Origin: Auanema rhodensis
Taxonomy: Eukaryota > Animalia > Nematoda
DNA: 64,000 nucleotides
Direction: 5' to 3'
Assembly: GCA_964057225.1 (NCBI GenBank)
Contig: OZ059896.1
Location: 7,874,001-7,938,000, forward strand
Shown here: positions 23,059-64,000 of the stretch, in pieces
Layout: every line of letters begins with the position of its first letter
How positions within the stretch are numbered: the stretch's first letter is position 1
The notes under the pieces: model-generated
The model's database searches: none
Told to the model about the DNA's origin: nothing
Seen by the model: only the letters and a program-made list of their open reading frames with translations
Translations under genes and position numbers: made by a program

Positions 23059-23061
23059 GAT

Positions 23062-26100: not shown

Positions 26101-26312
26101 AGGAAAACGAAAAAGATTGCTCCCGGTGAGGCTCGAACTCACGACCTTCAGATTATGAGACTGACGCGCTGCCTACTGCGCTACGGAAGCTACGAATATA
26201 GCGTGTGCGCAAATTTCTTAGTAGCTACGAACATACAAGAGACAACCATAACTACAAAAATGAAATAACATCTTTTGTATCGGAATAAATCGAGGAAAAC
26301 GAAAACGATTGC

Positions 26313-32233: not shown

Positions 32234-32636
32234 AGGAAAACGAAAAAGATTGCTCCCGGTGAGGCTCGAACTCACGACCTTCAGATTATGAGACTGACGC
32301 GCTGCCTACTGCGCTACGGAAGCTACGAATATATCGTATTCGCATATTTCTTAGTAGCTACGAACATACAATGACAACCAAAACTATAAAAATGAAAGAA
32401 TATCTTTTGTTTCAGAATAAATCGAGGAAAACGAAAAAGATTGCTCCCGGTGAGGCTCGAACTCACGACCTTCAGATTATGAGACTGACGCGCTGCCTAC
32501 TGCGCTACGGAAGCTACGAATATAGCGTGTGCGCAAATTTCTTAGTAGCTACGAACATACAAGAGACAACCATAACTACAAAAATGAAATAACATCTTTT
32601 GTATCGGAATAAATCGAGGAAAACGAAAACGATTGC

Positions 32637-43859: not shown

Positions 43860-44835
43860 AGGAAAACGAAAAAGATTGCTTCCGGTGAGGCTCGAACTCA
43901 CGACCTTCAGATTATGAGACTGACGCGCTGCCTACTGCGCTACGGAAGCTACGAATATATCGTATTCGCATATTTCTTAGTAGCTACGAACATACAATGA
44001 CAACCAAAACTATAAAAATGAAAGAATATCTTTTGTATCAGAATAAATCGAGGAAAACGAAAAAGATTGCTCCCGGTGAGGCTCGAACTCACGACCTTCA
44101 GATTATGAGACTGACGCGCTGCCTACTGCGCTACGGAAGCTACGAATATATCGTATTCGCATATTTCTTAGTAGCTACGAACATAGAATGACAACCAAAA
44201 CTATAAAAATGAAAGAATATCTTTTGTATCAGAATAAATCGAGGAAAACAAAAAAGATTGCTCCCGGTGAGGCTCGAACTCACGACCTTCAGATTATGAG
44301 ACTGACGCGCTGCCTACTGCGCTACGGAAGCTACGAATATATCGTATTCGCATATTTCTTAGTAGCTACAAACATACAATGACAACCAAAACTATAAAAA
44401 TGAAAGAATATCTTTTGTATCAGAATAAATCGAGGAAAACGAAAAAGATTGCTCCCGGTGAGGCTCGAACTCACGACCTTCAGATTATGAGACTGACGCG
44501 CTGCCTACTGCGCTACGGAAGCTACGAATATATCGTATTCGCATATTTCTTAGTAGCTACGAACATACAATGACAACCAAAACTATAAAAATGAAAGAAT
44601 ATCTTTTGTATCAGAATAAATCGAGGAAAACGAAAAAGATTGCTCCCGGTGAGGCTCGAACTCACGACCTTCAGATTATGAGACTGACGCGCTGCCTACT
44701 GCGCTACGGAAGCTACGAATATAGCGTGTGCGCAAATTTCTTAGTAGCTACGAACATACAATAGACAACCATAACTACAAAAATGAAATAACATCTTTTG
44801 TATCGGAATAAATCGAGGAAAACGAAAACGATTGC

Positions 44836-46032
44836 GGTTCTTTTTCCGTATCTAGGGCTTTGGGGGGGAGGGGTCTCTTTCTATTAAGGAATAATATTTC
44901 ATTACATTCACAATGAATTATGAAAGCGAATATTACTTTGTAAATGTCTGTAATAAGTATAATAAAACTTGATTATATTATGATACAAAAATTGAATCAT
45001 TATTGGTCATTGCTTCTGCATTATCAACCATACTTCGTTTAAATGTTCGCTCCAAAAAAGAGACTTCGTACTGAAGCTGATGCCATCCAATTCCTGCAAG
45101 AGAAGGAAATAATCTCTCAAACTAACGAAGGTGACCGATGAACACGACAAATGAGTCTTTCTGCTGCTCGAAATAAGTGAAAGGTATATTAGAAAAGACT
45201 GTAGAAGAGAAATTTTAATAAAAAATGGAACATTTCATCAATTCATAAAGTTAAAATCTAAATATAATCAACACAAACATTTTAGGCTCAAAATTAGGTT
45301 ATACCAAGTTCATTTTTTTCGTACACGGCTGGAGCAAGGAATACACTACTGTAAAGTTCTGTCAATATGAGTTAGGAATAAGCTCTTGCAAAACAGCCGT
45401 GGATTATAATAAATATATAAGAAAAGTTTGTGCATTTAACCTCTTGAAGCATTCTCCAAAGATTGGAGATCCCAGTTTGACTGTTGAATTTGATGAAACG
45501 TTAGTTTCTAGCAGAAAGTTTAATGCGGGTAGTATTAGGCCAGCGCAATGGGTTTTCTGCTGTTCCTGATAGAAGTGCAGAAACCTTAAACAGCTGCGTT
45601 ATTAATTGTATTGAGCGTGAAGTTAATATACTGAGTGATTGTTGGAGAGCATATGGGAGTATTAATAGTCTTTCACAAAATTATAGGCATTTAACAGTTA
45701 ATCATACGTATAACTTCACGGATCCCGAGACCGGAGCTAATACCAAAATAATTGAAGGTCTTTGAGATTTAGCTAAAACTAAAAGCAAGCGCATGCACAG
45801 GGTACAGCAAAATATGTTGGATGGTTACCTCTCTGAGTATATTTGGAGTAGATGAAATGGTAACAGCTACCTTTTTGAATGTATTTTTATTGATATTGTT
45901 GAATGTACCCAGGAAGAAACTCAAATATGTGAACTAAGAGCTAACACAACGAGATAGGATTAGATTTATAGATGATAACGTTATAAAAAGTTCAGCTTAT
46001 GTACTAGGCAATCAACACCAACACTTTCTTCA
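44836..46032 (+). pseudogene. Merlin/ISXO2 remnant, copy 9
   Basis: Same +1 A variant as copy 7. Confidence 0.88.
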
Positions 46033-48107
46033 AGGAAAACGAAAAAGATTGCTCCCGGTGAGGCTCGAACTCACGACCTTCAGATTATGAGACTGACGCG
46101 CTGCCTACTGCGCTACGGAAGCTACAAATATATCGTATTCGCATATTTCTTAGTAGCTACGAACATACAATGACAACCAAAACTATAAAAATGAAAGAAT
46201 ATCTTTTGTATCAGAATAAATCGAGGAAAACGAAAAAGATTGCTCCCGGTGAGGCTCGAACTCACGACCTTCAGATTATGAGACTGACGCGCTGCCTACT
46301 ACGCTACGGAAGCTACGAATATATCGTATTCGCATATTTCTTAGTAGCTACGAACATACAATGACAACCAAAACTATAAAAATGAAAGAATATCTTTTGT
46401 ATCAGAATAAATCGAGGAAAACGAAAAAGATTGCTCCCGGTGAGGCTCGAACTCACGACCTTCAGATTATGAGACTGACGCGCTGCCTACTGCGCTACGG
46501 AAGCTACGAATATATCGTATTCGCATATTTCTTAGTAGCTACGAACATACAATGACAACCAAAACTATAAAAATGAAAGAATATCTTTTGTATCAGAATA
46601 AATCGAGGAAAACGAAAAAGATTGCTCCCGGTGAGGCTCGAACTCACGACCTTCAGATTATGAGACTGACGCGCTGCCTACTGCGCTACGGAAGCTACGA
46701 ATATAGAGTGTGCGCAAATTTCTTAGTAGCTACAAACATACAAGAAACAACCAAAATTACAAAAATGAAATAACATATTTTGTATCAGAATAAATCTCGG
46801 AAAACGGAAAAGATTGCTCCCGGTGAGGCTCGAACTCACGACCTTCAGATTATGAGACTGACGCGCTGCCTACTGCGCTACGGAAGCTACGAATATAGAG
46901 TGTGCGCAAATTTCTTAGTAGCTACAAACATACAAGAAACAACCAAAATTACAAAAATGAAATAACATATTTTGTATCAGAATAAATCTCGGAAAACGGA
47001 AAAGATTGCTCCCGGTGAGGCTCGAACTCACGACCTTCAGATTATGAGACTGACGCGCTGCCTACTGCGCTACGGAAGCTACGAATATATCGTATTCGCA
47101 TATTTCTTAGTAGCTACGAACATACAATGACAACCAAAACTATAAAAATGAAAGAATATCTTTTGTATCAGAATAAATCGAGGAAAACGAAAAAGATTGC
47201 TCCCGGTGAGGCTCGAACTCACGACCTTCAGATTATGAGACTGACGCGCTGCCTACTGCGCTACGGAAGCTACGAATATATCGTATTCGCATATTTCTTA
47301 GTAGCTACGAACATACAATGACAACCAAAACTATAAAAATGAAAGAATATCTTTTGTATCAGAATAAATCGAGGAAAACGAAAAAGATTGCTCCCGGTGA
47401 GGCTCGAACTCACGACCTTCAGATTATGAGACTGACGCGCTGCCTACTGCGCTACGGAAGCTACGAATATATCGTATTCGCATATTTCTTAGTAGCTACG
47501 AACATACAATGACAACCAAAACTATAAAAATGAAAGAATATCTTTTGTATCAGAATAAATCGAGGAAAACGAAAAAGATTGCTCCCGGTGAGGCTCGAAC
47601 TCACGACCTTCAGATTATGAGACTGACGCGCTGCCTACTGCGCTACGGAAGCTACGAATATATCGTATTCGCATATTTCATAGTAGAAACTAACATACAA
47701 GAGACAACCAAAACTACAAAAATGAAATAACATCTTTTATATCAGAATAAATCTGGGAAAACGGAAAAGATTGCTCCCGGTGAGGCTCGAACTCACGACC
47801 TTCAGATTATGAGACTGACGCGCTGCCTACTGCGCTACGGAAGCTACGAATATAGCGTGTGCGCAAATTTCTTAGTAGCTACGAACATACAATAGACAAC
47901 CATAACTACAAAAATGAAATAACATCTTTTGTATCGGAATAAATCGAGGAAAAGAAAAAAGATTGCTCCCGGTGAGGCTCGAACTCACGACCTTCAGATT
48001 ATGAGACTGACGCGCTGCCTACTGCGCTACGGAAGCTACGAATACAGCGTGTGCGCAAATTTCTTAGTAGCTACGAACATACAAGAGACAACCAAAACTA
48101 CAAAAAT

Positions 48108-49363
48108 TCCTTTTCCTATTTTTATATCTCGTCTTTTTCATTTCTTTTTTCACTATGTCCTCTTCCCAATCTGTTTCAAAATCCGATTTTACCGCACTTT
48201 CTGATTCTCTCGAAGAATCTTTCTCCCAATTTTCTTCTGAATTACGTGGCATTATTTTCTCTATTCAAACTACCGTTAATTCTAATTGTACCCGTATTGC
48301 GGAATTAGAATCAAAGGTTGCCTCACTGTGTAGCTCGCTCAAAAATGGTACTTCTCAAGAGGTTGTATCTAATTTAGTTAACATAAGTTCAGAGAAGTCA
48401 AAATTTCCTGACCGTGCTACAAAACTCCTTTGGTTCAATGTTCCATTGAGCAGTACGGACTTTTCTTCCGATCCCACTTCTCTTGTGTCGGATGTTCTTA
48501 ATCTGTCCAAGAACACTGAAATATGTAGTTTATTAAGCTCTCGTGCAATTGTTGTTACCCGCTACAATTCTAAGACCAAACTCCCTGGCCCTATTGCTAT
48601 AAATTGCCCTAGTGAACAAATTCGTGATACTTGCATATAACTAATCCGCAATCACAAAGAAGTTCTTTCCGCTTCACTCAAAAAAACTTTTGTGAGAAGA
48701 GACTATTCGAAATAGAATTTGAACGTGAATTGAAGGAAAAGTGCAAGGTTATGAATTCTACTGGGACTAACAGCCTTCATATTGTTCGTAATTTCAAAAT
48801 TGTTAAGATCATCAAAAAAATATCCTCAATTAGTTCTCCTACTCCAGCTCCTACCTGTACTCATCTTATTTCTCCTGTTTCCCCTTCTTCCCCAAATATT
48901 GTACAAATCGCTCCTCCGCCTTCCAAAGCAAGCCGTACTTCTCTTGAGGTCGACAGGTCTCCTTGTCAATTTCCTTCACCCTCAAGACGAAAATCACGAC
49001 ATGCTCCTTATGCTCTGAGATCACTCTCCTGTCCCAGAGTTAAAAACCCAACAATACCTCTTACCGCACCTTCCCTATCTGACCCTACCTCAAGTCTCCC
49101 CCTAGTTCCTAATCATACTCCCTTCACCAAATCACTTCCACCTCCAAAACATAGCTTTCGTTTATCATACTTCTTTCCCTGCCCCCCTCTCGGTCTATTT
49201 CTCTAACGCTCGTTCTGTTTTGAAAAAATTCCCCCATTTCAATTTTGTTTCCACTGCTTATAACCCTGACATTATTTGTTTCAATGAAAGTTGGCTAAAT
49301 AGTGATATCTGTAGCTCAACTTTACCACTTTCTGATTTATATTATGTTATCCGTAGTGATAGG
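48108..49363 (+). mobile_element. 3'-truncated non-LTR retrotransposon (CR1/Jockey-like LINE): 5'UTR, frameshifted ORF1, start of AP endonuclease
   Basis: Pyrimidine-rich leader; coiled-coil-like ORF1 (48155-48640, continued in 48631-49206); APE motifs SNARSVLKK, PDIICFNESWL, YVIRSDR, then an abrupt switch to tRNA repeat. Confidence 0.82.
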
Positions 49364-52300
49364 CACCGCGAGCCATCTTTTCCGTTTTCCCAGATTTATT
49401 CTGATACAAAAGATATTCTTTCATTTTTGTAGTTTTGGTTGTCTCTTGTATGTTCGTAGCTACTAAGAATTTTGCGCACACGCTGTACTCGTAGCTTCCG
49501 TAGCGCAGTAGGCAGCGCGTCAGTCTCATAATCTGAAAGTCGTGAGTTCGAGCCTCAACGGAAGCAATCTTTTCCGTTTTCCGAGACTTATTCTGATACA
49601 ATATATGTTATTTCATTTTTGTAATTTTGGTTGTCTCTTGTATGTTTGTAGCTACTAAGAAATATGCGAATACGATATATTCGTAGCTTCCGTAGCGCAG
49701 TAGGCAGCGCGTCAGTCTCATAATCTGAAGGTCGTGAGTTCGAGCCTCACCGGGAGCAATCTTTTTCGTTTTCCTCGATTTATTCTGATACAAAAGATAT
49801 TCTTTCATTTTTATAGTTTTGGTTGTCATTGTATGTTAGTTTCTACTATGAAATATGCGAATACGATATATTCGTAGCTTCCGTAGCGCAGTTCCAGCCT
49901 CAACGGAAGCAATCTTTTCCGTTTTCCCAAATTTATTCTGATACAAAAGATTTTTTTTCATTTTTGTAGTTTTGGTTGTCTCTTGTATGTTCGTAGCTAC
50001 TAAGAAATTTGCGCACACGCTTAATTCGTAGCTTAGTTTCTTTCATGAAATATGCGAATACGATATATTCGTACTAAGAAATTTGCGCACACGCTTAATT
50101 CGTAGCTTAGTTTCTTTCATGAAATATGCGAATACGATATATTCGTAGCTTCCGTAGCGCAGTAGGCAGCGCGTCAGTCTCATAATCTGAAGGTCGTGAG
50201 TTCGAGCCTCACCGGGAGCAATCTTTTCTGTTTTCCCAGATTTATTCTGATACAAAAGATGTTATTTCATTTTTGTAGTTTTGGTTGTCTCTTGTATGTT
50301 CGTAGCTACTAAGAATTTTGCGCACACGCTGTATTCGTAGCTTCCGTAGCGCACTAAGCAGCGCGTCAGTCTCATAATCTGAAAGTCGTGAGTTCGAGCC
50401 TCAACGGAAGCAATCTTTTCCGTTTTCCCAAATTTATTCTGATACAAAAGATTTTTTTTCATTTTTGTAGTTTTGGTTGTCTCTTGTATGTTAGTTTCTA
50501 CTAAGAAATTTGCGCACACGCTTTATTCGGAGCTTCCGTAGCGCAGTAGGCAGCGCGTCAGTCTCATAATCTGAAGGTCGTGAGTTCGAGCCTCACCGGG
50601 AGCAATTTTTTCCGTTTTCCCAGATTTATTCTGATACAAAAGATGTTATTTCATTTTTGTAGTTTTGGTTGTCTCTTGTATGTTAGTTTCTACTATGAAA
50701 TATGCGAATACGATATATTCGTAGCTTCCGTAGCGCAGTAGGCAGCGCGTCAGTCTCATAATCTGAAGGTCGTTACTTCTAGCGTCAGCGGGAGCAATCT
50801 TTTCCGTTTTCCCTATATTTATTCTGATACAAAAGATGTTATTTCATTTTTGTAGTTTTGGTTGTCTCTTGTATGTTAGTTTCTACTATGAAATATGCGA
50901 ATACGATATATTCGTAGCTTCCGTAGCGCAGTAGGCAGCGCGTCAGTCTCATAATCTGAAGGTCGTGAGTTCGAGCCTCACCGGGAGCAATCTTTTCCGT
51001 TTTCCGAGATTTATTCTGATACAAAATATGTTATTTCATTTTTGTAATTTTGGTTGTTTCTTGTATGTTTGTAGCTACTAAGAAATTTGCGCACACTCTA
51101 TATTCGTAGCTTCCGTAGCGCAGTAGGCAGCGCGTCAGTCTCATAATCTGAAGGTCGTGAGTTCGAGCCTCACCGGGAGCAATCTTTTCCGTTTTCCCAG
51201 ATTTTTTCTGATACAAAAGATGTTATTTCATTTTTGTAGTTTTGGTTGTCTCTTGTATGTTAGTTTCTACTATGAAATATGCGAATACGATTTATTCGTA
51301 GCTTCCGTAGCGCAGTAGGCAGCGCGTCAGTCTCATAATCTGAAGGTCGTGAGTTCGAGCCTCACCGGGAGCAATCTTTTCCGTTTTCCGAGATTTATTC
51401 TGATACAAAATATGTTATTTCATTTTTGTAATTTTGGTTGTTTCTTGTATGTTTGTAGCTACTAAGAAATTTGCGCACACGATATATTCGTAGCTTCCGT
51501 AGCGCAGTAGGCAGCGCGTCAGTCTCATAATCTGAAGGTCGTTACTTCTAGCCTCACCGGGAGCAATCTTTTCCGTTTTCCCTATATTTATTCTGATACA
51601 AAAGATATTCTTCCATTTTTATAGTTTTGGTTGTCATTGTATGTTCGTAGCTACTAAGAAATATGCGAATACGATTTATTCGTAGCTTCCGTAGCGCAGT
51701 AGGCAGCGCGTCAGTCTCATAATCTGAAGGTCGTGAGTTCGAGCCTCACCGGGAGCAATCTTTTCCGTTTTCCTCGATTTATTCTGATACAAAAGATATT
51801 CTTTCATTTTTGTAATTTTGGTTGTCTCTTGTATGTTCGTAGCTACTAAGAAATATGCGAATACGATTTATTCGCAGCTTCCGTAGCGCAGTAGGCAGCG
51901 CGTCAGTCTCATAATCTGAAGATCGTGAGTTCGAGCCTCACCGGGAGCAATCTTTTCCGTTTTCCTCGATTTATTCTGATACAAAATATGTTATTTCATT
52001 TTTGTAATTTTGGTTGTCTCTTGTATGTTTGTAGCTACTAAGAAATTTGCGCACACGCTATATTCGTAGCTTCCGTAGCGCAGTAGGCAGCGCGTCAGTC
52101 TCATAATCTGAAGGTCGTGAGTTCGAGCCTCACCGGGAGCAATCTTTTCGTTTTCCCAGATTTATTCTGATACAAAAGATGTTATTTCATTTTTGTAGTT
52201 TTGGTTGTCTCTTGTATGTTAGTTTCTACTAAGAAATATGCGAATACGATATATTCGTAGCTTCCGTAGCGCAGTAGGCAGCGCGTCAGTCTCATAATCT

Positions 52301-55300
52301 GAAGGTCGTGAGTTCGAGCCTCACCGGGAGCAATCGTTTTCGTTTTCCTCGATTTATTCTGATACAAAAGATATTCTTTCATTTTTATAGTTTTGGTTGT
52401 CATTGTATGTTCGTAGCTACTAAGAAATATGCGAATACGATATATTCGTAGCTTCCGTAGCGCAGTAGGCAGCGCGTCAGTCTCATAATCTGAAGGTCGT
52501 GAGTTCGAGCCTCACCGGGAGCAATCTTTTCCGTTTTCCCAGATTTATTCTGATACAAAAGATGTTATTTCATTTTTGTAGTTTTGGTTGTCTCTTGTAT
52601 GTTAGTTTCTACTATGAAATATGCGAATACGATATATTCGTAGCTTCCGTAGCGCAGTAGGCAGCGCGTCAGTCTCATAATCTGAAGGTCGTGAGTTCGA
52701 GCCTCACCGGGAGCAATCTTTTTCGTTTTCCTCGATTTATTCTGATACAAAAGATATTCTTTCATTTTTATAGTTTTGGTTGTCATTGTATGTTCGTAGC
52801 TACTAAGAAATATGCGAATACGATATATTCGTAGCTTCCGTAGCGCAGTAGGCAGCGCGTCAGTCTCATAATCTGAAGGTCGTGAGTTCGAGCCTCACCG
52901 GGAGCAATCTTTTCCGTTTTCCCAGATTTATTCTGATACAAAAGATGTTATATCATTTTTGTAGTTTTAGTTGTCTCTTGTATGTTAGTTTCTACTATGA
53001 AATATGCGAATACGATATATTCGTAGCTTCCGTAGCGCAGTAGGCAGCGCGTCAGTCTCATAATCTGAAGGTCGTGAGTTCGAGCCTCACCGGGAGCAAT
53101 CTTTTCCGTTTTCCGAGATTTATTCTGATACAAAAGATGTTATTTCATTTTTGTAGTTTTGGTTGTCTCTTGTATGTTAGTTTCTACTAAGAAATATGCG
53201 AATACGATATATTCGTAGCTTCCGTAGCGCAGTAGGCAGCGCGTCAGTCTCATAATCTGAAGGTCGTGAGTTCGAGCCTCACCGGGAGCAATCGTTTTCG
53301 TTTTCCTCGATTTATTCTGATACAAAAGATATTCTTTCATTTTTATAGTTTTGGTTGTCATTGTATGTTCGTAGCTACTAAGAAATATGCGAATACGATA
53401 TATTCGTAGCTTCCGTAGCGCAGTAGGCAGCGCGTCAGTCTCATAATCTGAAGGTCGTGAGTTCGAGCCTCACCGGGAGCAATCTTTTCCGTTTTCCCAG
53501 ATTTATTCTGATACAAAAGATGTTATTTCATTTTTGTAGTTTTGGTTGTCTCTTGTATGTTAGTTTCTACTATGAAATATGCGAATACGATATATTCGTA
53601 GCTTCCGTAGCGCAGTAGGCATCGCGTCAGTCTCATAATCTGAAGGTCGTGAGTTCGAGCCTCACCGGGAGCAATCTTTTTCGTTTTCCTCGATTTATTT
53701 TGATACAAAAGATATTCTTTCATTTTTATAGTTTTGGTTGTCATTGTATGTTCGTAGCTACTAAGAAATATGCGAATACGATATATTCGTAGCTTCCGTA
53801 GCGCAGTAGGCAGCGCGTCAGTCTCATAATCTGAAGGTCGTGAGTTCGAGCCTCACCGGGAGCAATCTTTTCCGTTTTCCCAGATTTATTCTGATACAAA
53901 AGATGTTATATCATTTTTGTAGTTTTAGTTGTCTCTTGTATGTTAGTTTCTACTATGAAATATGCGAATACGATATATTCGTAGCTTCCGTAGCGCAGTA
54001 GGCAGCGCGTCAGTCTCATAATCTGAAGGTCGTGAGTTCGAGCCTCACCGGGAGCAATCTTTTCCGTTTTCCGAGATTTATTCTGATACAAAATATGTTA
54101 TTTCATTTTTGTAATTTTGGTTGTTTCTTGTATGTTTGTAGCTACTAAGAAATTTGCGCACACTCTATATTCGTAGCTTCCGTAGCGCAGTAGGCAGCGC
54201 GTCAGTCTCATAATCTGAAGGTCGTGAGTTCGAGCCTCACCGGGAGCAATCTTTTCCGTTTTCCCAGATTTTTTCTGATACAAAAGATGTTATTTCATTT
54301 TTGTAGTTTTGGTTGTCTCTTGTATGTTAGTTTCTACTATGAAATATGCGAATACGATATATTCGTAGCTTCCGTAGCGCAGTAGGCAGCGCGTCAGTCT
54401 CATAATCTGAAGGTCGTTACTTCTAGCCTCACCGGGAGCAATCTTTTCCGTTTTCCCTATATTTATTCTGATACAAAAGATATTCTTCCATTTTTATAGT
54501 TTTGGTTGTCATTGTATGTTCGTAGCTACTAAGAAATATGCGAATACGATTTATTCGTAGCTTCCGTAGCGCAGTAGGCAGCGCGTCAGTCTCATAATCT
54601 GAAGGCCGTGAGTTCGAGCCTCACCGGGAGCAATCTTTTCCGTTTTCCTCGATTTATTCTGATACAAAAGATATTCTTTCATTTTTGTAATTTTGGTTGT
54701 CTCTTGTATGTTCGTAGCTACTAAGAAATATGCGAATACGATATATTCGTAGCTTCCGTAGCGCAGTAGGCAGCGCGTCAGTCTCATAATCTGAAGATCG
54801 TGAGTTCGAGCCTCACCGGGAGCAATCTTTTCCGTTTTCCTCGATTTATTCTGATACAAAATATGTTATTTCATTTTTGTAATTTTGGTTGTCTCTTGTA
54901 TGTTTGTAGCTACTAAGAAATTTGCGAATACGATATATTCGTAGCTTCCGTAGCGCAGTAGGCAGCGCGTCAGTCTCATAATCTGAAGGTCGTGAGTTCG
55001 AGCCTCACCGGGAGCAATCTTTTCCGTTTTCCTCGATTTATTCTGATACAAAAGATATTCTTTCATTTTTGTAATTTTGGTTGTCTCTTGTATGTTCGTA
55101 GCTACTAAGAAATATGCGAATACGATATATTCGTAGCTTCCGTAGCGCAGTAGGCAGCGCGTCAGTCTCATAATCTGAAGGCCGTGAGTTCGAGCCTCAC
55201 CGGGAGCAATCTTTTCCGTTTTCCTCGATTTATTCTGATACAAAAGATATTCTTTCATTTTTGTAATTTTGGTTGTCTCTTGTATGTTCGTAGCTACTAA

Positions 55301-56028
55301 GAAATTTGCGCACACGCTATATTCGTAGCTTCCGTAGCGCAGTAGGCAGCGCGTCAGTCTCATAATCTGAAGGTCGTGAGTTCGAGCCTCACCGGGAGCA
55401 ATCTTTTCCGTTTTCCCAGATTTATTCTGATACAAAAGATGTTATTTCATTTTTGTAGTTTTGGTTGTCTCTTGTATGTTAGTTTCTACTAAGAAATATG
55501 CGAATACGATATATTCGTAGCTTCCGTAGCGCAGTAGGCAGCGCGTCAGTCTCATAATCTGAAGGTCGTGAGTTCGAGCCTCACCGGGAGCAATCGTTTT
55601 CGTTTTCCTCGATTTATTCTGATACAAAAGATATTCTTTCATTTTTATAGTTTTGGTTGTCATTGTATGTTCGTAGCTACTAAGAAATATGCGAATACGA
55701 TATATTCGTAGCTTCCGTAGCGCAGTAGGCAGCGCGTCAGTCTCATAATCTGAAGGTCGTGAGTTCGAGCCTCACCGGGAGCAATCTTTTCCGTTTTCCC
55801 AGATTTATTCTGATACAAAAGATGTTATTTCATTTTTGTAGTTTTGGTTGTCTCTTGTATGTTAGTTTCTACTATGAAATATGCGAATACGATATATTCG
55901 TAGCTTCCGTAGCGCAGTAGGCAGCGCGTCAGTCTCATAATCTGAAGGTCGTGAGTTCGAGCCTCACCGGGAGCAATCTTTTCCGTTTTCCCAGATTTAT
56001 TCTGATACAAAAGATGTTATATCATTTT
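49364..56028 (+). tRNA. tRNA-Met(CAT): Inverted, more heterogeneous tRNA-Met(CAT) array, ~34 units (33 full length, several degenerate; one internally deleted)
   Basis: Same tRNA read directly on the plus strand; 191/192-bp units with mixed spacer variants. Confidence 0.95.
55903..55975 (+). tRNA. tRNA-Met(CAT): Representative plus-strand tRNA-Met(CAT) (last copy before LTR)
   Basis: Identical to the consensus 73-mer. Confidence 0.96.
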
Positions 56029-56948
56029 TGTAGCGTTCCATTATGCTCCTACGTATATTGAACAGACCATTGTAGTCTGCTCAACTACGCGTATAGTATT
56101 CCATAAGTGTAGCGGTATGGAAACAGAGCATAAGGATTACATAAGATAAGGAAATATATAGGTTTATTATACACAATACAATATCATTACAATACAATAA
56201 CACAAGGATAAAGTAAACTACACTTACAAGACAAAGACTAATATATAAGATTAACTAAGTTAGATGCAAACCGTCCATGGGCTTGCAAAGGGGCGAACTC
56301 CCGAATAGGGGCATGAGGGAAGGCGGTGCCATTCCTCATTCCTCTAGTCGGTCTGGCTCTAACCCTGCAGTTACATATATAGAGTCTCCGAATGGAACGT
56401 GCCCTTTTTCAAAGATTGTCGCGACCTCGCGATATTTTAAACAAAAATTTGGGCTTATATGTAACTGAGTTTTAGAGTTCAATTGTTTTAGCTTCACAAT
56501 AACTATAGTATGATAGAGTTTTAATTAGTATAAAAACAAAATTACAATAATTTATAAGAAGGGTTCGATATAATATAAAGTAACGATGAATTAGAATATT
56601 ATTAATTTCATAAATTAATTCTCTTAATATTGAAGCATTTCCTAATAGAGATTGTAGAATAAGGGTCTAGTAATGAATGGGAATATGTTATTATTTTGAC
56701 TAATGGTCTCAAGAAGTACTCATTTCTAAATTGAACCGAGATTATGATTTAATAATGTGTCTCCATATGTCTCCCAGAGTGAATCCTTGATTACTAGTGG
56801 AGACTACCACTTAAGATGAAATTGTGGTTTATACGCCTACCAGTGTTTATCTCATCTTATTTGAGGAGGCACATGGAGCTCTGATGGTTGTCAAAATGTC
56901 CTCTAGTCCGCATAGGATTACGGTAACTTGGAACCATTAGTCATAACA
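56029..56948 (-). repeat. Putative 3' LTR (~920 bp)
   Basis: Minus strand starts TGTTATG right after a purine tract and ends CGCTACA at the junction with the tRNA spacer; second LTR not in window so boundaries are unverified. Confidence 0.65.
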
Positions 56949-56959
56949 TCTCCTCGTTT
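56949..56959 (-). promoter_or_regulatory. Putative polypurine tract
   Basis: AAACGAGGAGA immediately before TGTTA on the minus strand. Confidence 0.55.
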
Positions 56960-57096
56960 AGAATTTGCCTTATTTTTCCTTTTTCAATCTCTATTAAATG
57001 CTATTTTTATTTTGAATGTTATTTAGCATAAATTTTTTTTTCTAATTCATCGTTACTTTGTTACAATAATTTGAATAACGTAGCATTATCTTGTTG

Positions 57097-60000
57097 TTAT
57101 TCTTCTTCATTCCTCGGAAGCCATATTTCGTCTTCATTTTCATCTTCTGGCTCTGTATCTATGCTATCCTTGTTGTTCCTGTTGATCACTTTTATTATTT
57201 CGATGTCGCTATCTTCTTCTGCTTGACTTTCTCGAAGTCTTGCGCGAGTGTTGTAAGAGATGTTTTGTGAAGCAGGAGAGAAGATTTTCAAGTTATCTTT
57301 GTGGATATCTTGTAGTTTTCCTGATGAATTTCTGATTTGAACTTTTGATCCTTCTACGTTGATGACTTCGTATGGTCCATCATAGCTTTTCCGAAGCTTT
57401 TGGCCGATTTGGTGTGATTTTATGGTCGTCATCACCATGTCGCCCGGTTGAATGTCTCTATGGTGTGCTCTTTGCGTTCTATCTTTCTTCTTTTTCGCAT
57501 TTTCTTGATTTTTAGCTATGCGGTTCTTTATTATTTCGTCTCTCTTGTCCATATCTGGTCTTCTTTGGAGTAATTCTTCAGAAATTTCTTGAATTTTGGT
57601 GATCGTTTCTGGTAATTCAGCGTCCATTGACATTCTGCATTCTTTACCGAATAATGCAATGTATGGCGCAATCCCTGTAGTCGCGTGCTGAATATTGTTA
57701 ATAGCAAAAGTGATTTTTGGTAATACAGTATCCCAGTCACTAAGGTCCTCTTTTAAGTAGTGGGTTAATCCTTCTTCGAGGGTTCTGTGAAGTCTTTCCA
57801 CTTGTCCATTTGAGTTCTTTTGGTGTGGTAGTGTTGGTTCATGTTTGATTCCAAGTTTAGTACACATTTCTTCGAACTTTTTAGATACAAAGTTCGAACC
57901 TCTATCGGTGATCAAGCGATGGGGTGGTCCAAAAATGTAAACGAAATGTCTTAGAAATCGGTCAATTGTGATTTCCGTTGTTATTTGTGGTACAGCAATT
58001 GTTGTTGACCATTTTGTAAATGCGTCTTGCATGGTAATGACGTAGGTACAGTTTCTTTTTGAAGGGGGAAATGGTCCCATTACGTCCATGTGGACTCGTT
58101 CAAATGGCTTGCTTGGTATCTCAAAATGACCTATTGGTTGTACCGTCATGGAATGTGGATCTTTTTTTCTTTGAGCACATTTAATGCAATTCTTGATGAA
58201 TATAGTAATGTCGTTCTGCATATTTGTCCAATAGAATCTTCTTAGAATTGCTTCTTTTGTTTTAATAATTCCTTGATGTGCTGCAATTGTAGGATCCTCA
58301 TGAAAAACTTTGATTATTTCCTTAATTATGGGGTGTTCTTGTGGTATTACGATAGCGGGTTGTGGCTTTTTGTCTGTTGGTTTTGTATAGAGCAAGTCAT
58401 TTATGACACAATATCTGTCATTAGCTGTCATGTTCTTTTGTGCTCTATATTCAATCTCCGCTATCGTCCGTTTAATCCAAGGGGTGTTTAGTTGAATTTC
58501 CTTTATTGTTGGTGTATTTATGGCGTTAATGTGAATTTCTTCTATTTTCTTCTTCTTTGTTTCCGGCTTAGCATCGTTAGCTTCTTCACCTATATATCGA
58601 GATAGAGCATCGCATACTTTATTTAATTGGCCTGCGCGATATTTTATTTCAATATCATATTCTTGGATGACCAGCTGGAACTTCGCAAGACGACCAAATA
58701 AGTCTCTGCGTGTCATTAAGCTGGTAAGGGGTCGATGGTCCGTAATACATATAGTATGAGTTCCAAGAATGTATGTACGGAATTGATTTAATGCATATAC
58801 AAGGCCTAATGCTTCTATCTCGATTGGTGCGTAGTTACGTTCGGCTTTAACTAGTTTTCTGCTTGCAAATGCGATAGGGTGTAGATTTTTCAGAGGTTGT
58901 TTTGGATCTTCCGGTTGTAATAATACAGCACCTATGGCGATGTTACTACCGTCGCTTTCAACTATAAACAAGCGGTCCGATTTAGGTGGGCTTAAAACGG
59001 GTGCCTGTATTAAACTTCTTTTAAGGAGGTCTAAAGCTTCTTTATGTTTGTTTTCCCATTTGAATTCAGTATCTGCCTTTGTCAGATCGTATAAAGGGCT
59101 TGCGATACGTGCAAAATCTTTCATGAATTTGCGAAAGAATCCAACCATTCCCAAGAATGCTCGTACACCTGTTGCATTCTTTGGTGCCGGATAATCTTGT
59201 ATGGCGGCGACTTTTTGAGGGTCAGGTTTTATACCTTGACGTCCTACAATAAGTCCTAGAAACTTCACTTCTGGTTGAGCAAAAGCGCATTTCTTAAGCT
59301 TTATCTTCATTCCCAATTCTTCTACTGCTTGCAGTAAATCATCGATATCTTTGAGATGTTGTTCTCTTGTATCAGATATAACTAATAGATCGTCCAAATA
59401 AACAAATAGTTTACAAGAACATTTACTTTGCAAATACCTTACTGCTGTTTGAAAGGTATGAGGGGCTCCACAAAGGCCCATCGGCATCCGTTTGTACTGG
59501 TATGTGCCGGATGTGGTCGTAAATGCTGTTAGTGGTCGATCTGATTTTCTCAAGGATATTTGAAAAAATCCTGACACTAAATCGAAGTTTGAGAAAAATT
59601 GGGCGCCTGCTGCCAAATCAACTATGTCAGAAATGCTTGGAATGACATAAGTTTGCTTGCGTGTGACATTATTTAAAGCTCGAAAATCTGTCACAAACCT
59701 ATACGTGTCATCTTTCTTCTTAACTAGTACTACAGGGCTATTAAATAGAGATGTAGAAGGCTCTATTATGCCTTGCTCAAGCATTTCTTTGACTTGTTTT
59801 TCAATTTCTTCCTGTTTTCCTAAGGGAATACGTGTTATTCTCGGCTTTGGCATATCCATATCTGTTCTCAATGGTATGGTATGCTCTATAGGACCTTTAA
59901 ATAAGCCTATTTTCCTGTCCTCGTTAAGAAATGCCTCACGATAGCTTTCAATTATTTTTGTAAGCTCATGTTTTTCTTCTTTCGTGAGATCAGCATTCTC

Positions 60001-63000
60001 TAGATCAAGATCTTTTATGAAGTCTCTTGGAAAATATGGTAGTTTACTCTCCCAATCGGCTTCTGGCGGAACATATGGTAGAATTGGCTTATGCTTAAAG
60101 GGTTCACAAGCCGGAATTTCTCCAATTATTGCCTGTCCAATGACTGAATTAGCTTCCATAGCTATTGTTTCATCGGTATCGTTACGGAACATAACATATA
60201 CTCCACTGGTATCACGAAACGCAGTTGGATATAATGATTTTAATGCGCTTCCACTATCCCCTAAGACAACCACTTCGTTAGATTCTAGTGGTTTATCTGT
60301 CTTTATTGGGATAGGTGCCTCTTCATCAGGCTTTAATGTTTTTGTTCTTAAATTAATGATATTCACAGTTATCTCCGTATGCTTAATAGATTCGTTTCCT
60401 ATTAATGGGATGGCATTGTTTCCAATCTCCAACCTCTTCTTGGATGGTTTAAGGCTGACGTCGATGTTTTCGCTGTCAAGCGCTTTCATGAAATCTAGTC
60501 CAATTAAAGCGGGAGCAGGACAGTCATGATCGTTTGAGACCAAAAAGGTGTGTTCGATCTCGTAGCCGGCAATTTCAATTACAAGATTTATCTTTCCATA
60601 AAATGTGAAAGTGGACTTGTTGGCTGCCATCGCTACTAAATGTCTCTTCTTGACATTTTCGGCCATGTTCAGATATTTGAGGGTGGAGAGCCTAACATAT
60701 GACACTGATGAGCCTGAATCCCATAAAGCTAAAATCAGTTTATCTTCAACTGATATATATATTAATGGTAACTTTGTTTCCGCTGATGCAATAGAAGCAA
60801 CAAATGGTATTGCGATTGGAATAAATGTTACTAAAGCAGGATAGTATTGCTTCATGATGTTATCTGGCATCTGTTGGTCTGGGCGGCTTACAAGTTCCAA
60901 TGTTTCTTCATAGCTTGGGGGCTCATTATCTATTTCGTGGACATGCATTACGGTTAGTGGAGTGGCTCTGAAGAACCAAAATTTAGCAACAACGAAAAGA
61001 ATTATTAATACTGCGGCAATCGTGACTATTGATCCTATGAAGATGAGTGTTCTCTCAATTGAACCTATTAGAAATTGTTTTACGCTAGTCCAGGCGGAAG
61101 TTGTGAACTCAGCTGCTTTAGAGATATAGTCACTGCCCTTTTTCAAAAGATTAAAGGCTGACGTAATCTTTGGATCGTTGTGAATAGTATGTAAAACATG
61201 GTTCTGTCGTATGGATGCTAAACTTGCTCCATATGCAATAGCTGTTGACATTGAGTAAACTCTCAATGATAAATTGGTGTATAAGTTAGCGCCTGTGAAC
61301 TTTAAAGGTGTTAATTGGTGGTATTGCGCTTTATCAAAGAGTGATATTGGTTTTACTTCAACCGATCCATTTATATTTATCCATTCTCCATTTTGATAGT
61401 ACACATCTGTTGGTACATGTTCGCAATCTATCTCTTTTCCATGTGTTAATAAGTCTCTTGATCCTGGAGCAGCAAAATATAATCTCTCATCTTCTGTTAT
61501 TACTGGTGTTTCCAAATAGCATGTATCATTGATCTTATGATTATGATAAACAGCTTTAGGTTGAAGAGGTAAGCATATATGAACATGAACTATATCGCTG
61601 CCTACGAAACGGGCTGCAATATCCTCTCTTCCTAAAATAGTCCTCATTGCTATTGTGGGTTCTATGTGTAAAATAGAACGCCATAGCTCGAGGTATCTAT
61701 TTTGAATCTCACATATGGATTCATAAGATTCCATAAAATGTTTCTGTAGCTCTTCTTGTATGAGTGTTGTTGTATATTGTAGATGATCTTGAGCTATTCT
61801 GCGAGATACGTTGAGGTTGAATTGTATTTCGTTGTTCACTTTTGACGCTGTATACGTTGCCTGAGCCTGAATTTCTCTGGTTTCTACGGGTGGAGATGAT
61901 GTTCTTTGTTTCCTTAAGGTTCGTGACGCCGTGTCAGTGACTGTTGCTAATGTTGTTGGCGAGAGAGTCGTAGTTATCACGGCTGTTGTCGTGTCAACTA
62001 TGGTTGTCGTCGGAATCCGAGTCGTATAGCTTATAGTTGTCTCCTGAACTAGTGAAGCGGGTTTGTCCGTTGTTGTCGTTAATGACAGTCTTCTAGTCAG
62101 ATAAGGCGGTGTTTCAATATCCTCTAACAGTGGTAAAAATGTTTTTATAAGTAGCTGGCGTGTATCCGCGCTTGGGGTTTGAATGCGAGGGTGGGGGCCC
62201 ATCGATATACCGTAGTTAGAATCTTTATCTCGATATAGTTTGTTGGTATCTGGCACATTGATTGTTAATTGTCGGAACTTTTCATCATCTACGGCTGCTG
62301 CTGTTTTATTTGGCCTTATTACTCGCAATGTCATCAAGTTATGGTATAAGTAAAGTGTATTTCTAAGTACTATACGCTCATCAGCATTGTCAGTTGTTAA
62401 AGTTGGTCGGATAGGCGGCATGTTCACAAAGGATTTTAAAACCTCTTGCCTTGATGGTACCGACAGATTGTTTTCAAATATTACCGGTGTATAAGCTAGC
62501 TCCATCGCTATGCTTTCGGCTCTTTCGCGGTAGGATCCGTCCTTTTCTAGTAGTTTTTCGTCAAATTCGTGTGCTGTTAATCTGTCACCTATCTGTTCTA
62601 ATAATTGTTTTGAGGTTAAATACCGTATAGCGCCGCGAGTGGTTGCTGCCAGTTCCTTTTGCGCAAGAAAATAAAGTATTGCTTCCTCAGGGTCGTGTAT
62701 TTCGTATGTTTGAAGGAAACGTTGTATGGATTTATCAGATACGGGACTTCTTAAGAAGAAATAAAACTTCTCGGGATGTGCTGAAACCCAATCAATAATT
62801 GAATATGAAGGGTTGACAGCTCGTCTGGCCTTTATAAGCGGTATTATCTGATAAATACCAGGATTACTCATCACCGGTCGTAAGAAAGGATAAGGACAAA
62901 TATTTAATATTAAAGTTTCAAAATCTTCCTGTTTTTGTATCCACTCCTTGTTTAATTCAACCGTGCATTCCGCAATTGCTCTTTTATCTCTTTTCGCCGG

Positions 63001-63999
63001 AAGTTTCTTATATTCTCTCTCTATTAAAACATGGATATTGGTGTCATTTGGGTACTGTGGTAAGAGAATGTAATTGCCAGTTGTGGTGTGGAAGATTGGC
63101 TGTTTAAAACAAGAAGATATTTGCTTCGGTATCTCTTTTTGATCGATTACAAGGGCTGATTGAGTGGTTGGTAACAGAATAATGCCGTCTCCAATTATCA
63201 CATCATATTCACTCATGTCGATATAGTTGCATCGATATTCATAAGGCTGTTTCTCCCATATGATGATTGAGGTATCTGATGCACATTCTCCATGATGCGC
63301 TAAGCATCCTTCAGTATTTAGTATTAAATTGGAGATTATAGTTTCATCTGGCATCCGTGTCATAACCCCTTTTTCGATAACCAATCTGGCTTTCTCTTCA
63401 CATAGTTCATTATTAAAAGATCGGCCTGGCGAGAAGGAAGGCTCGTCAGTTGCATATGTTATGCTGTCGATCTTCTTTAATTCACTCCAATTCCATCTTC
63501 TATCTCTCACTGCCAGTCTGCATTCTGCAGCTGGTATCTTTTCAATTCTCGCTATCGTTGTATTGGTATCTCTAAGGAACAAAAGGTCTCTGATACACAT
63601 TTTATGAATTTCTTTGGAGCATCTCCATGCATCCCATTCATGTGCCGTTTGATTCCTTGTATAAAGATGAACTTTTGTTCGTAAGATATGCTTTATTGGT
63701 GGTAATAAGCATTTTCGGAGAGATGGGGGACGGAGAAGGGCTCCTCCAGTAGCTTTAGTACATAGCTGGTATGCTTCAGCTGTTGTAACCAGTGATAAGA
63801 TTACTGATAAAGCTACGGCTAAAGTCAAAGGAGATATCAGAGTCAAATTATTGACTCTTGAGCCTCTACCTCTGCCTCTATTGTTGTTATTTCCCCTAAA
63901 GGTACTGTTATTTCTCTGTCTATTATTGCTCATTTCTTGATTTTGTGATGCATTATGGCTTCTTTGATACCCATTTTGATTTTGATTCTGATAATTTCG
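57097..63999 (-). CDS. Single polyprotein: (gag tail)-signal peptide-gB-like envelope-TM-protease-RT-RNase H-integrase; 5' incomplete
   Basis: Frame stays open upstream of ATG 63933 to the window edge (RNYQNQNQNGYQRSHNASQNQEM); protease LWDSGS (~60712), RT YLDD (59389-59400), RNase H ESDGS/EIEALG/TDHRPL, integrase HHCC plus D-D-E (HMDVMG, TDRGSNF, VERLH) and GPY. Confidence 0.95.
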   Translation of the reverse strand, partial: RNYQNQNQNGYQRSHNASQNQEMSNNRQRNNSTFRGNNNNRGRGRGSRVNNLTLISPLTLAVALSVILSLVTTAEAYQLCTKATGGALLRPPSLRKCLLPPIKHILRTKVHLYTRNQTAHEWDAWRCSKEIHKMCIRDLLFLRDTNTTIARIEKIPAAECRLAVRDRRWNWSELKKIDSITYATDEPSFSPGRSFNNELCEEKARLVIEKGVMTRMPDETIISNLILNTEGCLAHHGECASDTSIIIWEKQPYEYRCNYIDMSEYDVIIGDGIILLPTTQSALVIDQKEIPKQISSCFKQPIFHTTTGNYILLPQYPNDTNIHVLIEREYKKLPAKRDKRAIAECTVELNKEWIQKQEDFETLILNICPYPFLRPVMSNPGIYQIIPLIKARRAVNPSYSIIDWVSAHPEKFYFFLRSPVSDKSIQRFLQTYEIHDPEEAILYFLAQKELAATTRGAIRYLTSKQLLEQIGDRLTAHEFDEKLLEKDGSYRERAESIAMELAYTPVIFENNLSVPSRQEVLKSFVNMPPIRPTLTTDNADERIVLRNTLYLYHNLMTLRVIRPNKTAAAVDDEKFRQLTINVPDTNKLYRDKDSNYGISMGPHPRIQTPSADTRQLLIKTFLPLLEDIETPPYLTRRLSLTTTTDKPASLVQETTISYTTRIPTTTIVDTTTAVITTTLSPTTLATVTDTASRTLRKQRTSSPPVETREIQAQATYTASKVNNEIQFNLNVSRRIAQDHLQYTTTLIQEELQKHFMESYESICEIQNRYLELWRSILHIEPTIAMRTILGREDIAARFVGSDIVHVHICLPLQPKAVYHNHKINDTCYLETPVITEDERLYFAAPGSRDLLTHGKEIDCEHVPTDVYYQNGEWININGSVEVKPISLFDKAQYHQLTPLKFTGANLYTNLSLRVYSMSTAIAYGASLASIRQNHVLHTIHNDPKITSAFNLLKKGSDYISKAAEFTTSAWTSVKQFLIGSIERTLIFIGSIVTIAAVLIILFVVAKFWFFRATPLTVMHVHEIDNEPPSYEETLELVSRPDQQMPDNIMKQYYPALVTFIPIAIPFVASIASAETKLPLIYISVEDKLILALWDSGSSVSYVRLSTLKYLNMAENVKKRHLVAMAANKSTFTFYGKINLVIEIAGYEIEHTFLVSNDHDCPAPALIGLDFMKALDSENIDVSLKPSKKRLEIGNNAIPLIGNESIKHTEITVNIINLRTKTLKPDEEAPIPIKTDKPLESNEVVVLGDSGSALKSLYPTAFRDTSGVYVMFRNDTDETIAMEANSVIGQAIIGEIPACEPFKHKPILPYVPPEADWESKLPYFPRDFIKDLDLENADLTKEEKHELTKIIESYREAFLNEDRKIGLFKGPIEHTIPLRTDMDMPKPRITRIPLGKQEEIEKQVKEMLEQGIIEPSTSLFNSPVVLVKKKDDTYRFVTDFRALNNVTRKQTYVIPSISDIVDLAAGAQFFSNFDLVSGFFQISLRKSDRPLTAFTTTSGTYQYKRMPMGLCGAPHTFQTAVRYLQSKCSCKLFVYLDDLLVISDTREQHLKDIDDLLQAVEELGMKIKLKKCAFAQPEVKFLGLIVGRQGIKPDPQKVAAIQDYPAPKNATGVRAFLGMVGFFRKFMKDFARIASPLYDLTKADTEFKWENKHKEALDLLKRSLIQAPVLSPPKSDRLFIVESDGSNIAIGAVLLQPEDPKQPLKNLHPIAFASRKLVKAERNYAPIEIEALGLVYALNQFRTYILGTHTICITDHRPLTSLMTRRDLFGRLAKFQLVIQEYDIEIKYRAGQLNKVCDALSRYIGEEANDAKPETKKKKIEEIHINAINTPTIKEIQLNTPWIKRTIAEIEYRAQKNMTANDRYCVINDLLYTKPTDKKPQPAIVIPQEHPIIKEIIKVFHEDPTIAAHQGIIKTKEAILRRFYWTNMQNDITIFIKNCIKCAQRKKDPHSMTVQPIGHFEIPSKPFERVHMDVMGPFPPSKRNCTYVITMQDAFTKWSTTIAVPQITTEITIDRFLRHFVYIFGPPHRLITDRGSNFVSKKFEEMCTKLGIKHEPTLPHQKNSNGQVERLHRTLEEGLTHYLKEDLSDWDTVLPKITFAINNIQHATTGIAPYIALFGKECRMSMDAELPETITKIQEISEELLQRRPDMDKRDEIIKNRIAKNQENAKKKKDRTQRAHHRDIQPGDMVMTTIKSHQIGQKLRKSYDGPYEVINVEGSKVQIRNSSGKLQDIHKDNLKIFSPASQNISYNTRARLRESQAEEDSDIEIIKVINRNNKDSIDTEPEDENEDEIWLPRNEEE
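60970..63837 (-). other. Envelope domain inside the polyprotein: class III (herpesvirus gB-like) fusion glycoprotein
   Basis: Signal peptide ISPLTLAVALSVILSLVTTAEA; Cys-rich ectodomain with N-glycosylation sequons; motif ICEIQNRYLELW..IEP..ILGR..ARFVGSD..C..CY; TM LIFIGSIVTIAAVLIILFVVA. Confidence 0.8.
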
Positions 64000-64000
64000 A

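What the first reader, a model, noticed from the sequence alone, without database searches (positions are those of the whole stretch)
57097..64000. Ty3/gypsy element with a gB-like fusogen embedded between Gag and protease in one open reading frame
Seen: one stop-free frame of >2290 codons, open to the window edge, with an N/Q/R-rich tail (likely Gag C-terminus), then a signal peptide, a ~900-aa ectodomain, a TM helix, and only then PR-RT-RH-IN. The segment CEIQNRYLELWRSILHIEPTIAMRTILGREDIAARFVGSDIVHVHICLPL...CY parallels, from memory, the herpesvirus gB core motif CELQN..LW....NP......GR..SAR.LGD..V..C....CY. Established: retroviruses and errantiviruses place env after pol as a separate ORF; nematode LTR elements are known to have captured viral fusogens, and C. 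elegans Cer1 has a similarly long single ORF. Inference: an intact, possibly infectious endogenous retrovirus whose polyprotein threads the ER membrane (Gag cytosolic, Env luminal, Pol cytosolic), more like an RNA-virus polyprotein. How new the lineage is cannot be judged without a search.
Basis: partly seen in the sequence, partly recalled or inferred. Interest (0 to 1): 0.88.

Follow-up and report, generated by a model that had tools for sequence, protein, structure and literature searches.

The report
Nematode gag-env-pol retrovirus-like element
A retrovirus-like jumping gene, probably of a roundworm, encodes a herpes-gB-like membrane-fusion protein and its copying enzymes in one unbroken reading frame that likely starts with the capsid protein; the layout is real but already published for nematodes, so this is a new member of a known group.

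Summary
57097-63999 (minus) is one stop-free 2300-codon frame: Gag-like tail, signal-like segment, 908-aa ectodomain, TM helix, then PR-RT-RH-IN. The ectodomain is a class III fusogen: 45 of 45 PDB sequence hits are herpes gB, and the model matches prefusion gB (Z 14.3).

The layout is not new. Chary & Hayashi (PMC13524379) describe GAG-ENV-POL with gB-type Env in nematodes, bryozoans and flatworms, list 36 nematode elements and credit Sacco 2022. The nearest RT relatives are rhabditid elements with the same order (10 of 11). This scan noted the layout earlier on flatworm DNA.

Added here, all predicted: a Ty1-like protease motif ([VI]N-x-[VILM]) recurs before the signal segment and in the Env tail across relatives; some tails carry PTAP/PSAP/PPxY budding motifs; a ~250-aa helical insert in Env has no fold match. 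The gag start, PBS and 5' LTR lie outside the window. Expression and infectivity are untested. New member of a known kind.

The parts
63856..63999 (-). Likely Gag C-terminal (nucleocapsid-like) N/Q/R/G-rich tail, aa 1-48; the gene continues past the window edge
   Evidence: Composition. The closest Env relative P0002 has the same junction, and its N-terminus aligns to the Gag region of complete relatives (E 2e-9, partly from biased composition). P0157 and P0159 carry Retrotrans_gag/Ty3_capsid upstream of Env.
63844..63855 (-). VNNL, predicted viral-protease site between Gag and Env (aa 49-52)
   Evidence: The motif occurs in 15 of 30 junctions against a shuffle mean of 0.6. Ty1 PR cuts VPTIN*NVHTS. 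Cleavage is inferred.
63772..63843 (-). Internal signal sequence (aa 53-76), predicted cut after AEA
   Evidence: Hydropathy 2.24. A hydrophobic segment precedes Env in 23 of 27 env-before-pol chains. The A-X-A rule is recalled.
62992..63771 (-). Class III fusogen N-terminal beta-rich region (gB domain I/II-like); candidate fusion loops near aa 139-142 and 188-194
   Evidence: pLDDT 85-98; aligned to gB. The loop assignment is inferred from hairpin tips.
62980..62991 (-). RDKR, furin-like site (aa 337-340)
   Evidence: P0002 has RTKR and several relatives have a basic site here.
62110..62979 (-). Helical insert domain (aa 341-630, about 250 aa ordered), so far seen only in Auanema sp. JU1783 relatives
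   Evidence: AF2 pTM 0.79 alone. Homologues are P0002, P0005, P0006, P0057, P0077, P0100 and P0156, all named Auanema. No Pfam family.
61900..62082 (-). Thr-rich mucin-like stalk (aa 640-700) ending in RTLRKQR, a second basic site
   Evidence: 24 Thr in 61 aa; low pLDDT.
61360..61887 (-). gB core: long central helix (aa 705-779) and the following beta domain
60985..61047 (-). Transmembrane anchor (aa 985-1005)
   Evidence: Hydropathy about 3; additive insertion score -4.5 on a recalled scale.
60769..60984 (-). Env cytoplasmic tail and linker to PR (aa 1006-1077), with PPSY at 60910-60921 and a Pro-containing hydrophobic stretch
60484..60753 (-). Aspartic protease (DSG)
   Evidence: Pfam E 5e-4, below cut-off; motif at aa 1092.
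58657..59724 (-). Reverse transcriptase (YLDD) and RNase H
   Evidence: Pfam E 4e-32 and 2e-28.
57097..58530 (-). INAI junction motif, integrase (H2C2, DDE core, GPY motif), acidic tail and stop
56401..57096 (-). 3' untranslated region ending in a polypurine-tract-like AAAAAGGGC; no sense-strand ORF of 40 codons or more
56034..56400 (-). Likely 3' LTR (367 bp) with 9-bp inverted ends, not TG...CA, inserted in a tRNA-Met array unit
   Evidence: The array unit breaks after 56033. One contig's numbering begins at 56034, contigs in two runs diverge after 56400, and depth is about double in X1 and X3 but not in X5. The second LTR was not seen.

Best explanation
This is a nematode-type Ty3/gypsy provirus of the published GAG-ENV-POL group, with a gB-like class III fusogen, protease, RT, RNase H and integrase in one frame behind a likely Gag tail; it is likely made as one ER-threaded polyprotein that is predicted to be cut apart by signal peptidase, furin and its own protease. 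Shown: the single frame, domain order, class III fold, one strong TM and placement among env-before-pol nematode elements. Inferred steps: (1) Gag is made in the cytosol. (2) The internal signal at aa 53-76 opens translocation and signal peptidase frees Env at Tyr77. (3) The TM at 985-1005 stops transfer, so PR-RT-RH-IN stay cytosolic and membrane-tethered. (4) The viral protease cuts at VN|NL to free Gag from the signal stub, within the Env tail to free Pol, and at IN|AI between RNase H and integrase. (5) Furin cuts at RDKR and perhaps RKQR, which would separate the helical insert and mucin stalk from the fusion core. (6) Particles bud with Env and fuse with neighbouring cells, likely germline, helped in some members by late-domain motifs in the Env tail. 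Odds: group membership about 0.93; steps 1-3 about 0.8; step 4 about 0.65; steps 5-6 about 0.4.
For: Fold; one search gives Z 14.3, rmsd 5.2 over 367 residues to prefusion EBV gB. Layout in relatives: 41 of 67 proteins of 1000 aa or more (P0001 and P0002 included) have Env then Pol in one chain. P0002 is 1666 aa on a 5045-bp contig, which leaves no room for an ordinary intron. 10 of the 11 RT-RH hits at 55% identity or more, all rhabditid nematodes, have Env before PR. Internal signal: only 6 of 30 junctions have a Met within 25 aa of the hydrophobic segment. Protease motif: 15 of 30 junctions, 27 of 42 tails and 8 of 29 RH-IN junctions, against shuffle means of 0.6, 2.1 and 1.0; RT-core control 1 of 48. 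Ty1 sites have V/I at P2 and P2'. Constraint: 22 listed differences in other runs are 12 silent, 10 missense and 0 stop (p 0.03), and the three listed indels lie outside the ORF.
Against: The gag start, PBS and 5' LTR were not seen, and no genome is held. The motif was chosen after reading, the sequences are related, and it is not enriched at RH-IN junctions of env-less outgroups (3 of 86). The window's own tail has only near matches (VHEI, VASI). Late-domain motifs are absent from 33 of 42 tails, and the PPxY class that the window carries is only weakly enriched (3 of 42; 45 of 2000 shuffles reach it). A third hydrophobic stretch (aa 1055-1073, hydropathy 2.07) would put Pol in the lumen if it crossed the membrane; its insertion score is unfavourable (+3.0, recalled scale) and it is weaker in relatives. 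A 1:1:1 Gag:Env:Pol ratio is odd for a capsid and suggests splicing that I could not test. Only 40 of 93 differences were shown. Foldseek TM-scores are low (0.15-0.30) and the model's pTM is 0.52.
Confidence: 0.78

Rival explanations
1. Same element, but the single frame is handled at the RNA level: splicing or trans-splicing gives separate Gag(-Pol) and Env messages, so the full ER-threaded polyprotein is rare or never made.
For: Cer1, another single-ORF nematode gypsy element, makes CERV from a spliced mRNA. Capsids need excess Gag (general knowledge). The window has a Met at aa 23, 30 residues before the signal segment.
Against: 24 of 30 junctions lack a nearby Met, and P0002 has none for 164 aa. 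The frame is kept across both junctions in many species, and protease-like motifs flank Env. This rival can coexist with the best explanation.
Confidence: 0.15
2. Env folds but no longer mediates cell entry; the element moves inside cells, and Env is kept because it carries Pol in frame or anchors assembly on membranes.
For: No infectivity is shown for any gB-type element; Chary & Hayashi call the entry mechanism unknown. Inserts between the Env halves vary from none to about 460 aa. Three members of the 26-member clade show no Env hit.
Against: Signal, TM, cysteines, basic cleavage site and core helix are kept across relatives at 20-50% identity. An in-frame deletion could remove Env if it were dispensable.
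Confidence: 0.06
3. A chance fusion or assembly chimera: a viral glycoprotein fragment landed in a gypsy element in this one genome.
For: The element sits in tandem arrays that are hard to assemble, and no listed contig spans the whole stretch.
Against: The same order occurs in dozens of proteins from many species. Contigs in other runs cross the Gag/Env junction, and the pieces on the Env and PR sides overlap at 60885-60919, in the Env tail.
Confidence: 0.01

Closest known systems
GAG-ENV-POL, HSV/gB-type Ty3/gypsy 'errantiviruses' of Nematoda (Chary & Hayashi, eLife 2026, PMC13524379; 36 Chromadorea elements)
   Same: Gene order, gB-type Env with signal and TM, Ty3/gypsy Pol, nematode relatives, LTR of similar size (published 141-470 bp), and RT-RH in the same broad clade as a published member (49% identity to P0273).
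   Different: No Auanema element is among the 36 rows, though the paper's genome table lists ENV-POL hits for two Auanema assemblies. The main text has no hit for polyprotein, frameshift, splic or fused. This lineage has a larger Env insert (370 aa between the halves, third largest of 86).
Nematode endogenous retroviruses of Sacco et al. 2022 (J Gen Virol, doi 10.1099/jgv.0.001739)
   Same: Flipped ENV/POL order in nematodes, as cited in PMC13524379. From recall, its abstract describes a continuous gag-env-pro-pol ORF with a Nyamiviridae-like glycoprotein; my BFVD hits include Nyavirus and other Mononegavirales/chuvirus G.
   Different: The paper was not held. The extra ORFs I recall from it (small protein, Upf1-like helicase) were not found in this 3' UTR.
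Herpesvirus glycoprotein B and Monjiviricetes G (class III fusogens)
   Same: Fold, core helix motif, furin-like loop, membrane-proximal helices and TM.
   Different: 8-15% structural identity; embedded in a retroelement polyprotein; a helical insert of unmatched fold; no gH/gL-like partner in the part seen.
C. elegans Cer1
   Same: Nematode Ty3/gypsy element with one long ORF.
   Different: Its extra ORF follows pol, encodes the CERV export factor and does not resemble Env; its Gag has three CCHC fingers, whereas 0 of 9 relatives checked here have a CCHC knuckle.
Bel/Pao elements with chuvirus-like or phlebovirus-like Env (mosquito elements; Atlas virus)
   Same: Fusogen associated with an LTR element; P0050 and P0115 carry the same Pfam fusogen after a Pao-type Pol in one chain.
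   Different: A different LTR family, with Env after integrase. Atlas Env is class II.

Membership tests
Nematode GAG-ENV-POL gB-type Ty3/gypsy ERVs | Ty3/gypsy Pol in the order PR-RT-RH-IN with catalytic motifs | tested here: met
Nematode GAG-ENV-POL gB-type Ty3/gypsy ERVs | HSV/gB-type Env ectodomain flanked by a signal (or TM) and a TM | tested here: met
Nematode GAG-ENV-POL gB-type Ty3/gypsy ERVs | Env upstream of Pol | tested here: met
Nematode GAG-ENV-POL gB-type Ty3/gypsy ERVs | Gag upstream of Env | tested here: inconclusive
   Only a low-complexity tail is in the window. Relatives P0157, P0159 and P0273 have Pfam Gag there, and P0002 bridges to it.
Nematode GAG-ENV-POL gB-type Ty3/gypsy ERVs | RT groups with described nematode members | tested here: met
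   26-member clade with P0273, FastTree support 0.86; the inner clade has 0.99. Only one published member was in the tree.
Nematode GAG-ENV-POL gB-type Ty3/gypsy ERVs | Chromadorean nematode host | tested here: inconclusive
   All 11 RT-RH hits at 55% identity or more are rhabditid; the window's host is not given.
Nematode GAG-ENV-POL gB-type Ty3/gypsy ERVs | Paired LTRs and a tRNA primer site | not testable with these tools
   One likely 3' LTR and PPT; the 5' end lies outside the window and no genome is held.
Nematode GAG-ENV-POL gB-type Ty3/gypsy ERVs | Cysteine-bridge type (C1a/d or C2a/c) | not tested
Cer1 clade | Accessory CERV ORF after pol; CCHC nucleocapsid | tested here: not met
   The ORF ends after integrase and the 3' UTR has no sense ORF. 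Cer1 itself was not placed in the tree.
Insect errantiviruses (Drosophila gypsy type) | F-type env as a separate ORF after pol | tested here: not met
   Env is gB-type and precedes PR.
Infectious endogenous retrovirus | Enveloped particles that enter new cells | not testable with these tools
   Needs bench work.

The most novel reading that the evidence does not exclude
These elements process a retroviral polyprotein the way flaviviruses do: duplicated Ty1-like protease sites on both sides of the env cassette free Gag from an internal signal and Pol from the Env tail; budding motifs sit in the Env tail rather than in Gag; and this Auanema-type lineage adds a furin-released helical domain of unmatched fold as a built-in receptor-binding or shielding subunit that stands in for herpes gH/gL.
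Probability: 0.25. Interest if true: 0.6.

Novelty: new member of a known kind. Interest (0 to 1): 0.27.

Why it matters
The layout is published, so the locus adds one more apparently intact member. Its value is as a test case. How a gB-type fusogen works without gH/gL, and how one frame yields cytosolic Gag and Pol around a luminal Env, are open points: Chary & Hayashi call the entry mechanism unknown. The junction motifs give specific, testable cut sites and hint that env was inserted at the ancestral Gag/PR cleavage site. A search for errantivirus plus late domain/ESCRT terms found 0 papers, but Sacco 2022 could not be read and may already cover processing.

Tried and rejected
Genome context: no genome is held, so gag, PBS, 5' LTR, target-site duplication and copy number could not be read.

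Expression: no RNA holder listed. X12 is only guessed to be RNA and was not used as evidence.

Sacco 2022: not held; searches found only the citing paper.

Insert domain: no Pfam family. Best VIA Z was 4.0 among 48,161 chains, none at 5 or above; no BFVD hit at E 0.001 or better. The death-domain and SAP/LEM-like rows are weak partial matches and were not accepted. A missing match does not show a new fold. The ESM Atlas did not answer. A search of longer proteins found only P0002.

Tree: the IQ-TREE run did not execute, so supports are FastTree values. The tree used 29 of 104 env-less proteins and no Cer1 sequence.

A second TM at aa 1055-1073 was considered and judged unlikely. Cer1-clade and insect-errantivirus membership were rejected. 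A sequence look-up among earlier findings returned nothing. No complex prediction was run.
Full report
Observation. The minus strand 57097-63999 is a single frame of 2300 codons, open at the window edge; chance of this is about 1e-68. The order is: N/Q/R-rich tail (aa 1-48), hydrophobic segment (53-71), 908-aa ectodomain, TM (987-1005), then protease, RT, RNase H and integrase with their catalytic motifs. After the stop come a 696-bp UTR, a polypurine-tract-like run and a likely 367-bp LTR (56034-56400) that interrupts a tRNA-Met array unit. No genome is held, so the 5' end was not seen.

The fusogen. All 45 PDB sequence hits are herpes gB, best E 3e-4. A 66-sequence profile (66 of the 96 first tried) gives 58 hits, gB down to 1.5e-16 and four rows named only 'Glycoprotein' at about 4e-5 to 8e-5. 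Pfam Monjiviricetes_fusion passes its cut-off and Glycoprotein_B does not. The AF2 model has mean pLDDT 75.5 and pTM 0.52, with a beta-rich N-terminal region, a 75-residue central helix, a beta domain and membrane-proximal helices. Foldseek returns gB in the PDB and Mononegavirales, chuvirus and herpes glycoproteins in BFVD, with low TM-scores of 0.11-0.30. VIA-align gives Z 14.3, rmsd 5.2 over 367 residues to prefusion EBV gB. The class III call is secure; the domain packing in the model is not.

Relatives. The Env search found 299 representatives and listed 150. Of 67 proteins of 1000 aa or more, P0001 and P0002 included, 41 have Env then Pol in one chain, 23 show Env only and 3 show Pol then Env; some 'Env only' rows are Bel/Pao chains that my Ty3 queries missed. 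Named ones come from Caenorhabditis, Aphelenchus and Acrobeloides. The closest Env is Auanema sp. JU1783 P0002 (48%), 1666 aa on a 5045-bp contig, so its Gag-end/Env/PR/RT continuity is not a splicing artefact. For RT-RH, all 11 hits at 55% identity or more are rhabditid, and 10 have Env before PR. P0157 and P0159 carry Pfam Gag in front. In a 61-sequence FastTree tree (32 env-pol chains, 29 of 104 env-less proteins), the element sits in a 12-member clade (0.99) within a 26-member clade (0.86); nine env-pol chains fall outside it.

What is known. Chary & Hayashi (PMC13524379): I read the abstract, sections 5 (part 1 of 2), 6, 9 (part 1 of 2), 14 and 22, passages, and rows of supplements 1, 2 and 6. 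They state that elements of Nematoda, Bryozoa and Platyhelminthes carry only gB-type Env, arranged GAG-ENV-POL, not monophyletic, and they credit Sacco 2022 for the nematode order. Supplement 1 lists 36 nematode elements, all ENV_HSV, none from Auanema; supplement 6 lists ENV-POL hits in two Auanema assemblies. Sacco 2022 was not held; that it reports a continuous gag-env-pro-pol ORF is my recall of its abstract. For Cer1 I saw passages only: its extra ORF follows pol and is not Env-like (PMC10309623, PMC3315495). Two earlier AI notes on flatworm DNA reached the same filing; I saw them after finding the paper.

Mechanism. A hydrophobic segment precedes Env in 23 of 27 env-before-pol chains. 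Only 6 of 30 junctions have a Met within 25 aa (3 junctions dropped), so it is most likely an internal signal. One strong TM returns the chain to the cytosol. The third hydrophobic stretch (aa 1055-1073) has two prolines, scores +3.0 against -4.5 for the TM on a recalled scale, and is weaker in relatives. The motif [VI]N[ANSTYHQ][VILM] occurs in 15 of 30 Gag/Env junctions, 27 of 42 Env tails (6 tails dropped) and 8 of 29 RH-IN junctions, against shuffle means of 0.6, 2.1 and 1.0 (maxima 4, 9, 6). It is in 1 of 48 RT-core controls and 3 of 86 outgroup RH-IN junctions. Ty1 protease cuts VPTIN*NVHTS and favours V/I at P2 and P2' (PMC6952103, passages); Ty1 is a different family, so this is analogy. 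The window has VNNL at aa 49 and INAI at 1824, but no exact match in its tail. The motif was chosen after seeing the sequences, and they are related, so the shuffles overstate significance. P[TS]AP or PPxY occurs in 9 of 42 tails (shuffle mean 0.8, max 5). P[TS]AP carries the signal (6 of 42); PPxY, the window's class, is weak (3 of 42). Their role as ESCRT late domains is recalled from retroviruses. Basic sites at 337-340 and 693-699 bracket a helical domain (pTM 0.79 alone) and a Thr-rich stalk. The domain's seven homologues are all from Auanema sp. JU1783, while relatives have inserts from none to about 460 aa.

State of this copy. Fifteen runs from four studies hold the stretch or part of it. 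In four laid runs, 40 of 93 differences were shown; the 22 inside the ORF are 12 silent, 10 missense and 0 stop, against 33% silent expected for transitions (p 0.03). The three listed indels are outside the ORF. This fits a young or maintained element but does not show activity.

Verdict. The predicted processing sites, tail motifs and lineage-specific insert are modest additions. A search for late-domain terms with errantivirus found 0 papers and the eLife text does not discuss polyprotein processing, but the unread Sacco paper and the eLife figures may bear on this. Interest 0.27.

Noticed in passing
window 23062-55975: 104 tRNA-Met(CAT) genes in a ~191-bp tandem unit: 74 on the minus strand (23062-48036) and 30 on the plus strand (49494-55975) (Rfam confirms tRNA in 20000-28000). 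The element is inserted in the last unit.
   Followed up: partly
window 26231-46004: Nine copies, 99% or more identical, of a ~1.25-kb spacer amplified within the tRNA array. Its peptide looks like a broken Merlin/IS1595-type DDE transposase (motif recalled, not searched).
   Followed up: partly
window 1-22900: About 91 copies of a 200-bp satellite, 92-100% alike; no Rfam match in the part scanned.
   Followed up: partly
window 48071-49432: A single-copy fragment where the tRNA array changes orientation; its ORFs look like LINE ORF1 and endonuclease remnants (recalled motifs; Pfam gave nothing relevant).
   Followed up: partly
window 56034-56400: The likely LTR has inverted ends CGTTCCATT...AATGGAACG rather than TG...CA. 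The boundary is uncertain by a few bases because the adjoining array letters could supply a CA end.
   Followed up: partly
window 56400: Two runs (X1, X5) share a sequence beyond the LTR that differs from the window; possibly another insertion site or an LTR variant.
   Followed up: no
proteins P0050, P0115: Bel/Pao polyproteins with the same fusogen family fused in frame after integrase.
   Followed up: no
proteins P0039, P0045, P0120: Env-before-pol chains of 2800-3500 aa with long extra N-terminal regions; P0045 has an RRM between Gag and Env.
   Followed up: no
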